NCBI GenBank assembly: GCA_000002445.1
Contig: CH464491.1
Location: forward strand, 3,424,001-3,488,000
Source: Trypanosoma brucei
Lineage: Eukaryota
DNA length: 64,000 bases
Direction of reading: 5' to 3'
The notes beneath the pieces are model-generated. The model was given only the letters and a program-made list of their open reading frames with translations, had not been told where the DNA came from and ran no database searches. The position numbers and the translations under genes are program-made. The stretch's first letter is position 1, and each line of letters starts with the position of its first letter. Shown piece after piece: positions 28,298 to 29,722 of the stretch.

Positions 28298-28356
28298 GTT
28301 TTTCGCAGTTCAATGCGAATATCCATCCCGAGGCCAAATCAACGAGGTGACCCGAA

Positions 28357-28418
<62 letters not shown>

Positions 28419-28429
28419 GGGTCGCGGCA
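28357..28429 (+). tRNA. tRNA-Phe (GAA), copy 1
   Basis: GCCGCGATAGCTCAGTTGGGAGAGCGTCAGACTGAAGATCTGAAGGTCCCTGGTTCGATCCCGGGTCGCGGCA is close to the canonical eukaryotic tRNA-Phe. A T5 terminator follows. Confidence 0.9.
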
Positions 28430-28609
28430 AAGTTTTTGCACCTCCTCCCACGTCACCTCTGAGCCTAACGTGGCTGCGGCTCCGTCACCACCGAATCACG
28501 GGGCCCAGCTGCCACAAGTGAAGGGAGGCAGAGAGTGCAGCCGCAGACCCTCACTAGTATCCAAGCGACTAGCACCGAGCGCGCTTGCGAGGGATGCTTC
28601 CTTTTTTTT
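28430..28609 (+). ncRNA. Candidate Pol III small RNA of about 180 nt between the tRNA-Phe terminator and a T8 run (unknown class), copy 1
   Basis: Imperfect hairpins such as ctgcggct...agccgcag and cacgt...acgtg. Ends in cttcc-TTTTTTTT. Conserved together with the tRNA in the second copy. No match to snRNA, 7SL or SL RNA sequences I can recall. Confidence 0.3.
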
Positions 28610-29722
28610 AAATCTTGGAGTTATTCGTGTATGGAAAGGTGAAGGTCGGCTCCTCTCAAACATTTGAGGCTGAGAGGCGATTGGAAAAAGGTCTATTCTT
28701 TCTTTTTGGGAAACTACCTACAATGGTTGCAGTGCGGTCCGTGGGCGAAATATTCTTCACCCGCCTCCGCGAAGGTGCGTTCGGTGTTGGCATTATTTTT
28801 ACCCACCGTGAGTTTACTTGGCTTCAGGAAGTTGCATGCCCGCCCTTAGGCAAACAAAATACACTTACGCCACTAGGCGGGAGACCAGGGGGAGAGATGG
28901 ATTCGGTCACGGCCCTCTACTTCCGCTTTCTTCTTACCCTTGGGAGGGGGGATTTTTCAAGAAATTGGGCCATGCTTTCGCAGGAATTACGCCCCGCTGG
29001 TGCGGACAAAAGCCACCATCGTTGAGCAAAGCCGGTGCTGTCGGCAGAATTTTCGCGGCACGTAGGTGGCCACGGGACCACCTATGACACGTGCTCGTCA
29101 CCCCGGGCCAGCGGGGAAAACCCCAGTTTCACGGATCCGCTTTCCACTTCGCAACGCCTTCCAGGGGAGTAACAACGCGTGTGGCTGTAGGCTTCCCTTG
29201 AAGTATTGGGGCTGGGCGCCGGCGCCCCATTGAGGTATTTCCCACGGCACTCGGCTGCCGCATAGAATCCGGCCACCGCACTAGCTGTCTCTTGACCGCG
29301 GCCGTTAGCAGACCCCCGGTGCCACTCCGGCGCGCACGCCTTTATTGGGATGGATGCATCCTCGAATCGAGCATCCACGTTGTACTTCCCCACGGAAGCA
29401 GCAAGAGCTGAAGGTAGCTTCCCTCGCCCCGGGGTGATAGGTCGCCATCGTCCCATCAGCACAAGAGAGCACCCTCACTGAGGGTTAGCACGCTGCGCCC
29501 AGGGGGGGGGGACCCGGCTACACACTCCTCTAAGCGGATATTTTCTTCCACGCAGAAACTTGGCCACAACGACCAGGCCAATTATTCGTTACCCAACGCA
29601 AAATACCCTTTTCGGAGAGCAGCAACACCCATCCCCAGAACGGCACCGCCCCCCCCCCCGCTAGAAACATTATCCACCGACATGCATCCCAACTCGCAGA
29701 GATTGGGAGCGCGCATCCAAAC

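What the first reader, a model, noticed from the sequence alone, without database searches (positions are those of the whole stretch)
28351..28841. A 491-bp duplicated module made of tRNA-Phe plus a conserved 410-bp tail, present in both tRNA islands
The same 491 bp occurs at 28351-28841 and 46162-46652, in the same orientation and essentially identical. The duplication starts 6 bp before the tRNA and ends abruptly, in the second copy exactly where inverted-repeat arm B1 begins. A tRNA gene mobilised together with a fixed downstream segment behaves like a small duplicative, SINE-like or recombination-prone unit. tRNA-derived repeats of this kind are not a known class in trypanosomatids.
Basis: seen in the sequence. 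Interest (0 to 1): 0.5.

Follow-up and report, generated by a model that had tools for sequence, protein, structure and literature searches.

The report
Two tRNA-Phe genes sharing a copied flank
The repeat is real, but it is not a mobile element: Trypanosoma brucei's two ancient phenylalanine-tRNA genes, 17.8 kb apart, share about 0.4-0.6 kb of downstream DNA that was copied from one locus to the other by recombination and is still kept identical, which is an ordinary kind of genome housekeeping.

Summary
Window 28351-28841 and 46162-46652 are 491 bp, direct and 100% identical. Each begins 6 bp before a tRNA-Phe(GAA) gene, and copy B ends at an inverted-repeat arm.

The window is T. b. brucei TREU927 chr11:3,424,001-3,488,000. 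The two genes are the annotated Tb11_tRNA_Phe_1 and Phe_2, the only tRNA-Phe genes in that genome.

Both loci are ancient. T. cruzi has the same Phe-Glu-Val and Ala-Arg-Phe clusters, so the tRNA was not mobilised. Only the 3' flank was copied.

Three independent assemblies carry the module at both loci with identical edges. Eight substitutions and a 152-bp indel differ between genomes but are shared by both copies within each genome, which indicates concerted evolution by gene conversion.

- The tail diverges at the neutral rate.
- It has no counterpart in other trypanosomes.
- It has no Rfam hit and no excess RNA structure.
- It contains several Pol III terminator-like T-runs (T5 and T8).
- It has no poly(A) end and no target-site duplication.

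The right junction shows GCCC microhomology. This fits the "one-sided MMEJ" gene conversion documented experimentally in T. brucei, probably in the direction A→B.

It is not SINE-like. Interest is low to moderate.

The parts
28351..28841 (+). Module copy A (491 bp): 6-bp leader, tRNA-Phe_1 and a 412-bp 3' flank. It is the probable donor.
   Evidence: It is 100% identical to 46162-46652. The same edges occur in gambiense and GCA_003543875.1.
28357..28429 (+). tRNA-Phe(GAA), annotated as Tb11_tRNA_Phe_1 (chr11:3452357..3452429).
   Evidence: ARAGORN, Rfam RF00005 at 69 bits, and PMC2695483 Additional file 1. The orthologous Phe-Glu(-His)-Val island lies upstream of the PUB gene in T. theileri, T. 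cruzi and T. grayi.
28433..28437 (+). T5 run, the Pol III terminator of tRNA-Phe. It separates the tRNA from the tail.
   Evidence: Sequence. PMC2695483 Additional file 2 lists it as the termination signal (AAGTTTTTGCACC, 5 Ts).
28434..28448 (+). TTTTGCACCTCCTCC, the single remaining copy of a 15-bp imperfect direct repeat. In gambiense and GCA_003543875.1 the two repeat copies flank a 152-bp segment that is missing from both TREU927 copies. This is a deletion scar of MMEJ type. The copy B equivalent is 46245-46259.
   Evidence: Alignments. The segment is found only inside the modules. MMEJ deletions of 81-948 bp using 5-20-bp imperfect microhomology are documented in T. brucei (PMC3045614).
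28430..28841 (+). The 'tail': 412 bp of non-coding 3' flank, with T-runs at 28602-28609 (T8), about 28703-28707 (T5) and about 28795-28799 (T5).
   Evidence: No Rfam hit at E<=10. Fold z-scores run from -1.3 to +0.1. No similarity downstream of tRNA-Phe in T. theileri, T. cruzi or T. grayi. Divergence between TREU927 and gambiense is 1.46%, against 0.8-2.5% in neighbouring non-coding DNA. ORFs overlapping or next to the tail have no Pfam hit.
46162..46652 (+). Module copy B (491 bp): leader, tRNA-Phe_2 and tail. It is the probable recipient.
46168..46240 (+). tRNA-Phe(GAA), annotated as Tb11_tRNA_Phe_2 (chr11:3470168..3470240).
   Evidence: T. cruzi contig 7016 has Ala-CGC(-), Arg-CCG(-) and Phe(+) in the same order, orientation and spacing. 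Synteny of both chr11 clusters with T. cruzi Sc005 is stated in PMC12204681.
46649..46652 (+). GCCC junction microhomology between the end of the tail and the start of inverted-repeat arm R. It equals 28838-28841 in copy A and the complement of 43147-43150 in arm L.
   Evidence: Three-way junction comparison. Donor A reads ...GTTGCATGCCC|GCCCTT, arm L (reverse complement) reads ...GTTTCCGGCCC|TTCAC, and product B reads ...GTTGCATGCCC|TCCAT. That is 4 bp perfect, or 8 of 11 imperfect.
46649..49937 (-). Inverted-repeat arm R. It is contiguous with the 3' end of the 441-aa gene, and it contains the N gap and a probably artefactual 995-bp duplicate. Its inner edge is the right boundary of module B.
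   Evidence: Gambiense and GCA_003543875.1 have single 1.5-kb arms and no gap.
41632..43150 (+). Inverted-repeat arm L, used here as a proxy for the pre-event sequence of arm R at the junction.
28094..28297 (+). tRNA-His(GTG) and tRNA-Glu(TTC), the rest of island A. They lie outside the module.
45847..46057 (-). tRNA-Ala(CGC) and tRNA-Arg(CCG), the rest of island B. They lie outside the module.
   Evidence: The pair is conserved in T. vivax and T. cruzi.

Best explanation
The module is the footprint of ectopic (interlocus) gene conversion between the two ancient paralogous tRNA-Phe loci of T. brucei chromosome 11.

Shown: both tRNA-Phe genes sat in their present islands before T. brucei and T. 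cruzi diverged (Phe-Glu-His/Val next to the PUB gene, and Ala-Arg-Phe). The identical 412-bp 3' flank (564 bp in gambiense) is specific to the T. brucei lineage, evolves at the neutral rate, and carries no detectable gene. The two copies continue to be homogenised.

Inferred: a DNA break at or just downstream of tRNA-Phe_2 was repaired using tRNA-Phe_1 as template. Strand invasion was anchored in the only pre-existing homology, which was the 73-bp tRNA plus its short leader. Synthesis ran about 0.4-0.6 kb into the donor's 3' flank. The new strand was rejoined to the other broken end through a short GCCC microhomology, overwriting the inner part of inverted-repeat arm R. This is the RAD51-dependent 'one-sided MMEJ' gene conversion demonstrated experimentally in T. 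brucei.

Once 0.5-0.6 kb of homology existed only 17.8 kb apart, ordinary gene conversion kept the copies identical. This included spreading a 152-bp microhomology-mediated deletion to both copies in strain TREU927.

The only functional content is the tRNA gene. The tail is passenger DNA.
For: (1) The window is TREU927 chr11:3,424,001-3,488,000, and these are the only two tRNA-Phe genes in the genome.

(2) Both loci are ancient. Phe-Glu(-His)-Val lies upstream of the PUB gene in T. theileri, T. cruzi Dm28c and T. grayi. T. cruzi contigs 7016 and 7909 carry Ala-CGC, Arg-CCG and Phe in the same order and orientation, with a 106-bp Arg-Phe spacer against 111 bp here. Synteny of both chr11 clusters is stated in PMC12204681.

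(3) The module has identical edges at both loci in three assemblies.

(4) Concerted evolution. Of 10 substitution columns, 8 are shared by A and B within a genome but differ between genomes. The 152-bp indel behaves the same way. There is no fixed A-versus-B difference.

(5) The tail appears neutral and lineage-specific. Its divergence is 1.46-2.2%, against 0.8-2.5% in the flanks. There is no similarity in three other trypanosomes, no Rfam hit, and no excess folding energy.

(6) The left edge coincides with the edge of pre-existing homology, because the -6..-1 leader is partly conserved across species.

(7) The right edge has GCCC microhomology (8 of 11 imperfect) shared by donor A and arm L. 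The product B holds one GCCC whereas A retains two in tandem, as expected for A→B annealing and not for B→A.

(8) One-sided MMEJ gene conversion, 5-20-bp imperfect microhomologies, deletions of 81-948 bp and absence of NHEJ are documented in T. brucei (PMC3045614).

(9) Neighbouring repeats are also homogenised. The IR arms are 99.4-99.7% identical within a genome and about 97.3% between genomes.
Against: The homology anchor of about 79 bp is short for efficient RAD51-dependent recombination.

A 4-bp perfect microhomology is at the lower edge of the 5-20 bp reported, and it is a single junction (chance about 1/256).

Polarity rests on the assumption that arm L faithfully preserves the former sequence of arm R, and that the inverted repeat predates the event.

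The age of the flank copy is bounded only as older than the divergence of the three sampled T. brucei-group genomes. T. congolense could not be examined. An alternative cannot be excluded: the flank could have been part of a much older duplication kept alive by continuous conversion.

Tail-only copies elsewhere in the genome could not be searched.

T. vivax has Arg-Ala without Phe. I interpret this as secondary loss in a rearranged, tandemly duplicated region, but I did not prove it.
Confidence: 0.72

Rival explanations
1. A plain segmental duplication in the T. brucei lineage created the second tRNA-Phe gene. In this view a 0.5-0.65-kb piece (tRNA plus tail) was copied from island A and inserted next to Arg-Ala in island B, and was later homogenised.
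For: T. vivax has the Arg(CCG)-Ala(CGC) pair next to the orthologous genes with no tRNA-Phe within 20 kb. The module has sharp edges and unrelated flanks. The whole region is a patchwork of duplications.
Against: T. cruzi, which is more distant than T. vivax, has Ala(-), Arg(-) and Phe(+) with the same orientation and spacer length. PMC12204681 reports both chr11 clusters as syntenic with T. cruzi. A tRNA-Phe therefore already sat there. The T. vivax locus is itself rearranged, with a tandem UEV-GARP-AcP duplication and a truncated acid phosphatase gene. The left edge of the module coincides with the tRNA's own conserved leader, as expected if the tRNA was the pre-existing homology.
Confidence: 0.12
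2. The tail carries a functional element that selection keeps identical at both islands. Candidates are a lineage-specific Pol III or Pol II non-coding RNA, or a Pol II termination or boundary element placed just ahead of the first tRNA met head-on by minus-strand polycistronic transcription.
For: In both islands the tail lies between the end of the upstream minus-strand gene array and the head-on tRNA-Phe. A T8 run lies about 170 nt after the tRNA terminator. Three of the six TREU927/gambiense substitutions fall in a possible 7-bp stem (28474-28480 with 28540-28546), and all three preserve pairing through G·U on the + strand. The last 260 bp of the tail has no TREU927/gambiense substitution.
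Against: There is no Rfam match at E<=10 in either the short or the long form. Fold z-scores are between -1.3 and +0.1 on both strands. Divergence is at the neutral rate. A 152-bp piece is dispensable in TREU927. There is no counterpart in three other trypanosomes. Known trypanosomatid Pol III small-RNA genes use a divergently oriented upstream tRNA, which is not this geometry (established knowledge; Nakaar et al. 1994 as cited in PMC12204681). Three wobble-compatible transitions have about a 1 in 4 chance of occurring on one strand or the other. The putative stem is not in the MFE fold.
Confidence: 0.08
3. A SINE-like, tRNA-derived retroposed or otherwise mobile unit.
For: The unit has a tRNA head with an internal Pol III promoter. 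Identity starts 6 bp upstream of the tRNA, near where Pol III would initiate. The longer form in gambiense contains a 137-bp piece bounded by a 15-bp direct repeat, with an A6 run on the minus strand.
Against: Only two tRNA-Phe genes exist in the genome. Both sit at loci orthologous to T. cruzi. T5, T8, T5 and T5 terminator-like runs, plus an extra T6 in gambiense, would stop Pol III long before the end of the unit. There is no A-rich or LINE-like 3' end and no target-site duplication. The head is a fully intact tRNA almost identical to the orthologous tRNA-Phe genes of other trypanosomes, identical at the gene ends shown.
Confidence: 0.02
4. An assembly artefact: one locus placed twice, or a repeat consensus pasted into two places.
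For: The two copies are 100% identical. A 100-N gap with a perfect 995-bp duplicate on each side lies 1.2 kb away. A short-read assembly breaks at the module.
Against: Two further independent assemblies without gaps have both copies in the same contexts. Each genome carries its own diagnostic variants. One genome has two substitutions private to copy B, so its copies were assembled separately. The flanks on both sides are unique and syntenic with other species.
Confidence: 0.01

Closest known systems
[quoted passage not shown]
   Same: A duplicated tract is bounded by real homology at one end (here the tRNA gene) and by a few bases of GC-rich microhomology at the other (GCCC, or 8 of 11). It is the same organism, which lacks NHEJ. 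The companion outcome, a microhomology-mediated deletion of 152 bp between 15-bp imperfect repeats, is also present in the same module.
   Different: This case is a natural, evolutionary event inferred from sequence, not an induced I-SceI break. The anchor homology is only about 79 bp. The microhomology is at or below the lower limit reported. RAD51 dependence and the initiating break are untested.
Concerted evolution of dispersed paralogues by interlocus gene conversion (the general phenomenon, for example in rDNA, histone and tRNA gene families)
   Same: The paralogues are identical within a genome but differ between genomes. Derived substitutions and an indel are shared by both copies. Tract edges are sharp.
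   Different: There are only two copies. The homogenised tract is mostly non-functional flank, and it extends on one side of the gene only.
tRNA-derived SINEs (for example B2, ID, and plant or fish tRNA-SINEs) and the T. brucei non-autonomous retroposon RIME
   Same: A tRNA-type head is followed by an unrelated body and is present more than once.
   Different: The head is a bona fide, terminated tRNA gene at an ancestral locus. There is no A-rich tail, no target-site duplication, no dispersal, and the copy number is two. Similarity to RIME or ingi could not be tested because no repeat library was available.
Trypanosomatid Pol III small-RNA genes with companion tRNA genes (U-snRNAs, 7SL, sRNA-76)
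   Same: A tRNA gene is physically linked to a fixed neighbouring segment inside a Pol III island.
   Different: In those genes the small RNA lies upstream of a divergently oriented tRNA, whose A and B boxes act as its promoter. Here the segment lies downstream on the same strand, behind a terminator. It matches no RNA family and is not conserved.

Membership tests
tRNA-derived SINE / retroposed tRNA-headed repeat | A tRNA-related head with internal A/B-box promoter | tested here: met
   An intact tRNA-Phe(GAA) scores 69 bits against RF00005. However, it is a genuine tRNA gene, not a degenerate derivative.
tRNA-derived SINE / retroposed tRNA-headed repeat | The whole unit can be transcribed as one Pol III RNA, with no internal terminator | tested here: not met
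   A T5 run lies directly after the tRNA and is listed as its terminator in PMC2695483. T8, T5 and T5 runs lie inside the tail, and gambiense has an extra T6.
tRNA-derived SINE / retroposed tRNA-headed repeat | An A-rich, simple-repeat or LINE-derived 3' end | tested here: not met
   The module ends ...GGAAGTTGCATGCCC in all six copies.
tRNA-derived SINE / retroposed tRNA-headed repeat | Target-site duplications flanking each insertion | tested here: not met
   The flanks of A and B share no direct repeat abutting the edges. The only one seen is a non-adjacent GTTGGC 6-mer near copy B, which is compatible with chance.
tRNA-derived SINE / retroposed tRNA-headed repeat | Many dispersed copies at non-orthologous sites | tested here: not met
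   T. brucei has only two tRNA-Phe genes. Both loci are orthologous to T. cruzi loci. Tail-only copies genome-wide could not be searched with these tools.
Interlocus gene conversion / concerted evolution | Paralogues are more alike within a genome than orthologues are between genomes | tested here: met
   A equals B in TREU927 (491/491) and in gambiense (643/643). TREU927 and gambiense differ by 6 substitutions and a 152-bp indel at each locus.
Interlocus gene conversion / concerted evolution | Lineage-specific derived variants are present in both copies | tested here: met
   Eight of 10 substitution columns and the indel are shared by A and B within genomes. The other 2 are private to copy B of GCA_003543875.1.
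Interlocus gene conversion / concerted evolution | The paralogous loci are older than their present sequence identity implies | tested here: met
   Both islands, each with its Phe gene, are conserved in T. cruzi. The tail itself is undetectable outside the T. brucei group.
One-sided MMEJ gene conversion (PMC3045614) | Extended homology at one end of the converted tract | tested here: met
   The left edge is the tRNA gene plus a partly conserved 6-bp leader. This was the only sequence the two loci shared before the event.
One-sided MMEJ gene conversion (PMC3045614) | A 5-20-bp microhomology, often imperfect and GC-rich, at the other end and present once in the product | tested here: inconclusive
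   GCCC is a 4-bp perfect match, or 8 of 11 imperfect, between donor A and arm L. It occurs once in B and twice in tandem in A. This is a single junction and depends on arm L being a valid proxy.
One-sided MMEJ gene conversion (PMC3045614) | RAD51 dependence and initiation by a double-strand break | not testable with these tools
   This requires genetics, for example an induced break near tRNA-Phe_2 in wild-type and rad51-null cells.
Trypanosomatid Pol III small-RNA gene with companion tRNA | The small-RNA gene lies about 100 bp upstream of a divergently oriented tRNA gene | tested here: not met
   The tail lies downstream of tRNA-Phe on the same strand, after its terminator.
Trypanosomatid Pol III small-RNA gene with companion tRNA | A recognisable, conserved, structured RNA | tested here: not met
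   No Rfam hit at E<=10. Fold z-scores are between -1.3 and +0.1. No conservation in T. theileri, T. cruzi or T. grayi. Divergence is neutral.

The most novel reading that the evidence does not exclude
tRNA genes at the boundaries of polycistronic transcription units act as recurrent recombination anchors. Head-on Pol II/Pol III conflicts would generate breaks there. Repair between paralogous tRNA genes would then transplant and homogenise boundary DNA between islands, so that the copied tail has been co-opted as a shared Pol II termination or boundary element, or as a lineage-specific ncRNA, at both islands. The duplicated Val, 5S and His genes shared by the two orthologous islands of L. major chr09 would be another product of the same process.
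Probability: 0.1. Interest if true: 0.5.

Novelty: new member of a known kind. Interest (0 to 1): 0.25.

Why it matters
The finding matters modestly.

It removes a candidate new class of tRNA-derived mobile repeat from consideration.

It documents a clean natural example of two repair outcomes previously shown only with engineered breaks in T. brucei: one-sided microhomology-mediated gene conversion and microhomology-mediated deletion. Here both lie in the core genome rather than in VSG subtelomeres.

It shows that the parasite's only two tRNA-Phe genes are kept identical by ongoing exchange.

It flags a rearrangement-prone pair of tRNA islands, with an inversion relative to T. vivax, inverted repeats, copy-number variation and a probable assembly artefact in the reference. 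This is useful for anyone curating the region or studying how transcription-unit boundaries evolve in trypanosomatids.

Tried and rejected
- Known ncRNA in the tail. Rfam gathering and E<=10 scans of both the short (TREU927) and long (gambiense) forms returned only the tRNAs plus noise.
- Structured RNA. Four folds of the two tail halves on both strands gave z-scores between -1.3 and +0.1.
- Protein-coding or retroelement remnant. ORFs overlapping or next to the tail have no Pfam hit. A six-frame submission failed because of stop codons.
- Deep conservation. blastn with word size 7 and nhmmer of the tail against T. vivax, T. cruzi, T. theileri and T. grayi loci found nothing.
- My own earlier hypothesis that island B gained its tRNA-Phe recently from island A. 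It was based on T. vivax lacking Phe next to Arg-Ala. I abandoned it when the T. cruzi gene table showed an Ala-Arg-Phe cluster with the same geometry.
- A two-step model of inversions with staggered breaks to explain the module and the inverted repeat together. I rejected it because the 156-bp repeat (29721-29876 and 41483-41638) is direct rather than inverted, as that model would require.
- The bacterial-type promoter and terminator scan is irrelevant to a trypanosome and gave nothing useful.
- T. congolense has no contig on record for the PUB orthologue. The exact 441-aa protein is not on record.
- A whole-genome search for further tail copies was impossible, because no T. brucei genome collection is available among the tools.
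Full report
**1. The observation**

Window 28351-28841 and 46162-46652 are identical at 491 of 491 positions, in direct orientation 17,811 bp apart, and the flanks on both sides are completely unrelated. ARAGORN and Rfam place a tRNA-Phe(GAA) at 28357-28429 and at 46168-46240. Identity therefore begins 6 bp upstream of the gene and runs 412 bp past it. Copy B ends at 46652, and an inverted-repeat arm begins at 46649 by BLAST or 46642 by the repeat finder.

**2. What the window is**

Exact-protein look-ups placed the region in the T. 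brucei group. It is 99.8-99.9% identical to T. equiperdum contigs and about 99.1% identical to T. b. gambiense DAL972 chr11. The supplementary gene table of Padilla-Mejía et al. 2009 (PMC2695483) lists TREU927 chr11 tRNAs at these positions:

| tRNA | chr11 start |
|---|---|
| His | 3452094 |
| Glu | 3452226 |
| Phe_1 | 3452357 |
| Ala | 3469847 |
| Arg | 3469985 |
| Phe_2 | 3470168 |

Each value equals the window coordinate plus 3,424,000. The window is therefore T. b. brucei TREU927 chr11:3,424,001-3,488,000. Table 1 of that paper counts exactly two tRNA-Phe genes in the T. brucei genome, so the window holds both.

**3. The repeat is real, not an artefact**

A 100-N scaffold gap lies at 47889-47988, so I checked independent assemblies.
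- T. b. gambiense DAL972 carries the module at island A (L002) and at island B (L008).
- GCA_003543875.1, a T. brucei-group assembly that I recall as T. equiperdum IVM-t1, carries it at A (L020) and at B (L009).
- Neither has gaps in this region, and in both the module edges are the same to the base: left CCCGAA|GCCGCG and right ...GTTGCATGCCC|.
- A short-read T. equiperdum contig stops at window 28382, inside tRNA-Phe and just inside the module. This is the usual signature of a repeat that the assembler could not resolve.

**4. Both tRNA-Phe loci are ancient**

Island A is conserved. A Phe-Glu cluster, with His and/or a divergent Val, lies immediately upstream of the PUB-domain gene in T. theileri (L014), T. 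cruzi Dm28c (L015) and T. grayi (L017).

I first thought island B had acquired its Phe recently, because T. vivax has Arg(CCG)-Ala(CGC) beside the orthologous genes with no Phe. The T. cruzi gene table overturned that idea.
- Contig 7016 has Ala-CGC(-) at 1187-1261, Arg-CCG(-) at 1327-1398 and Phe-GAA(+) at 1505-1577. Contig 7909 is the mirror-image haplotype.
- This is exactly the island B order and orientation, with a 106-bp Arg-Phe spacer against 111 bp in the window.
- Contig 6953 has Phe, Glu-TTC and Val-CAC, which is island A.
- A 2025 study states independently that both T. brucei chr11 clusters are syntenic with two loci on T. cruzi scaffold Sc005, 711 kb apart there against 17 kb in T. 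brucei (PMC12204681).

The tRNA gene was therefore not mobilised. Only the shared 3' flank needs an explanation, and the T. vivax state is best read as a secondary loss in a locus that is itself rearranged and tandemly duplicated.

**5. The tail looks like passenger DNA**

- It matches no Rfam family even at E<=10, in either the TREU927 form or the longer gambiense form.
- Neither half of it, on either strand, folds better than shuffled controls. The z-scores were -1.32, -0.69, +0.08 and -0.79.
- ORFs overlapping or next to it have no Pfam match.
- Sequence downstream of tRNA-Phe in T. theileri, T. cruzi and T. grayi shows no similarity to it by blastn (word size 7) or nhmmer, although the tRNA-Phe genes themselves look almost identical in the stretches printed.
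- Between TREU927 and gambiense the tail differs at 1.46% of sites. Against GCA_003543875.1 the figure is 1.9-2.2%. Both fall inside the 0.8-2.5% range of the neighbouring non-coding DNA. The tRNA has 0 or 1 change.
- A 152-bp piece of the tail is absent from both TREU927 copies, so it is dispensable.

**6. The unit is not SINE-like**

- A T5 run follows the tRNA immediately, and PMC2695483 lists it as the gene's terminator.
- T8 (28602-28609) and two further T5 runs lie inside the tail, and gambiense has an extra T6. No Pol III transcript could span the unit.
- The 3' end is ...GCATGCCC, which is not A-rich.
- No target-site duplication flanks either copy.
- There are two copies, both at ancestral loci.

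**7. Concerted evolution**

I aligned all six copies, from three genomes with two loci each, and tabulated the variable columns.
- Ten columns carry substitutions.
- Six of them separate TREU927 from the other two genomes, and both paralogues in every genome share the state.
- Two are private to GCA_003543875.1 and are again shared by its A and B copies.
- Only two are private to a single copy, copy B of GCA_003543875.1. One of these is a C-G to U-G change in the T-stem.
- The 152-bp indel follows the same rule: it is absent from both TREU927 copies and present in all four others.
- No position distinguishes A from B across genomes.

This is the classic signature of continuing interlocus gene conversion. 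The neighbouring inverted-repeat arms behave the same way, at 99.4-99.7% identity within a genome and about 97.3% between genomes. Homogenisation is therefore a property of the region, not of the tRNA module.

**8. How the flank was copied (inference)**

*Left edge.* The module's left edge coincides with the only homology the two loci had beforehand. That homology was the tRNA plus a short leader that is partly conserved across species: CCCGAA in T. brucei, CCCGTA in T. theileri, TTCGTA in T. grayi and AACGTC in T. cruzi.

*Right edge.* I compared three sequences at the right junction.
- Donor-candidate A reads ...GTTGCATGCCC|GCCCTTAGG.
- Product B reads ...GTTGCATGCCC|TCCATATG.
- The reverse complement of arm L reads ...GTTTCCGGCCC|TTCACATG. 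Arm L mirrors what arm R looked like.

A and arm L share GCCC exactly at the join (8 of 11 with mismatches). B contains this GCCC once, whereas A has two in tandem.

*What this fits.* This is what annealing of a strand copied from A onto a broken end in B would give. The reverse direction would need a blunt join, which T. brucei is not known to make. Glover, Jun and Horn showed experimentally that T. brucei repairs breaks by RAD51-dependent 'one-sided MMEJ' gene conversion. In that pathway homologous recombination acts at one end of a duplicated tract and a 5-20-bp, often imperfect, GC-favoured microhomology acts at the other. They also showed MMEJ deletions of 81-948 bp and found no NHEJ (PMC3045614).

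The module fits the first outcome. The 152-bp indel fits the second, because it is bounded by TTTTGCACaTCCTCC and TTTTGCACcTCCTCC, of which TREU927 retains one copy at 28434-28448.

The coincidence of the module's end with the inner edge of arm R is explained if the copied tail overwrote the inner part of that arm.

*Confidence in each step.*
- High: the repeat is real, both loci are ancient, the copies evolve in concert, and the unit is not mobile.
- Moderate: the one-sided MMEJ mechanism and the A→B polarity. These rest on a single junction and on arm L being a valid proxy.

**9. Context**

The block between the islands (UEV/RING gene to acid phosphatase) and the Arg-Ala pair are each inverted in T. 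brucei relative to T. vivax, with orthology confirmed at 44% and 65% protein identity. In T. cruzi Dm28c the UEV gene is divergent from the PUB gene across island A. Both islands therefore sit at rearrangement breakpoints within an otherwise co-directional gene array.

In L. major chr09, which appears to be the syntenic chromosome, two islands 12 kb apart are {Val, 5S, His, Phe} and {Glu, 5S, Val, Arg-CCG, His}. They share duplicated Val, 5S and His genes. This suggests that exchange between this pair of islands is recurrent in trypanosomatids.

**10. Limits**

- I could not search a whole T. brucei genome for tail-only copies.
- I could not examine T. congolense or the DNA of T. cruzi island B.
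- I have no expression or chromatin data.
- The age of the flank copy is bounded only as older than the divergence of the three T. brucei-group genomes sampled.

**11. Verdict**

This is a real but ordinary feature. It is an ectopic gene-conversion tract anchored in a tRNA gene, and it is a natural example of repair pathways already demonstrated in this organism. The genes themselves are annotated. The flank copy and its concerted evolution appear not to have been described in the papers I could read, but they belong to a well-known kind of event. Interest is 0.25.

Noticed in passing
window 28434-28448 and 46245-46259; L002:6657-6809, L008:4987-5139, L009:4991-5143, L020:12541-12693: A 152-bp segment directly after the tRNA-Phe terminator is present in both module copies of gambiense and GCA_003543875.1 but absent from both TREU927 copies. 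It is bounded by a 15-bp imperfect direct repeat (TTTTGCACaTCCTCC / TTTTGCACcTCCTCC). This looks like an MMEJ-type deletion later spread to the paralogue. On the minus strand the segment ends in A6 before the repeat, so an insertion with a target-site duplication is not formally excluded. No Rfam hit was found.
   Followed up: partly
window 41632-43150 versus 46649-49937: About 1.5-kb inverted-repeat arms flank the 3.5-kb segment that holds island B. Arm R is contiguous with the 441-aa gene, and arm L contains an inverted copy of that gene's last ~160 coding bases (49777-49937). The arms are 99.4-99.7% identical within each genome but about 97.3% between genomes, so they also evolve in concert. 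They could mediate flipping of the tRNA island.
   Followed up: partly
window 46733-47727, 47889-47988 (N), 47989-48983: A perfect 995-bp duplicate lies on each side of the 100-N scaffold gap. Gambiense and GCA_003543875.1 have a single copy and no gap, and the distance between the 441-aa and UEV genes is about 1.6 kb shorter there. This is probably an unresolved assembly artefact in this version of the TREU927 reference.
   Followed up: partly
window 30037-31367 and 35487-36817; L020:1-10934: Identical 1331-bp direct repeats, each carrying a 116-aa gene, flank the histidine acid phosphatase gene. GCA_003543875.1 has one extra 5.4-kb unit, which is copy-number variation by unequal exchange between these repeats.
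   Followed up: partly
window 29721-29876 and 41483-41638: A 156-bp direct repeat at 95.5% identity. One copy lies 0.9 kb beyond tail A. The other lies just upstream of the UEV gene and overlaps the outer edge of arm L by 7 bp. It is a second patch shared between the two island regions, older or not homogenised. Its origin is unexplained.
   Followed up: no
L010/L011 (T. vivax SOPI01000654.1): T. vivax has the UEV-GARP-acid phosphatase unit tandemly duplicated (10,442-bp period) with the last phosphatase copy truncated. Arg-Ala lies at a convergent junction with the 441/560-aa orthologues, and no tRNA-Phe is nearby. Gene orientation is inverted relative to T. brucei.
   Followed up: partly
L009:5147-5219 (GCA_003543875.1 tRNA-Phe copy B): A C→T change in the T-stem (C-G to U-G) is private to copy B of this assembly. 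It could be a genuine isodecoder in the making or a sequencing error.
   Followed up: no
window 28474-28480 with 28540-28546: Three of the six TREU927/gambiense substitutions in the tail fall in a potential 7-bp stem, and all three keep pairing through G·U on the + strand. The chance of this on one strand or the other is about 1 in 4, and the stem is not part of the predicted MFE fold.
   Followed up: partly
window 654-3671: An 839-bp unit is repeated four times in tandem at 99-100% identity at the left end of the window.
   Followed up: no
window 12196-13753 and 54593-56151: A 1.56-kb direct repeat at 99.7% identity, 42 kb apart, overlaps large minus-strand ORFs (470 aa and 547 aa). This appears to be a dispersed gene duplication.
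   Followed up: no
L. major chr09, 405.5-406.2 kb and 418.5-419.2 kb (PMC2695483 Additional file 1): The apparently syntenic Leishmania chromosome also has two Pol III islands 12 kb apart. They share duplicated Val-CAC, 5S rRNA and His genes, which suggests recurrent exchange between this pair of islands across trypanosomatids.
   Followed up: no
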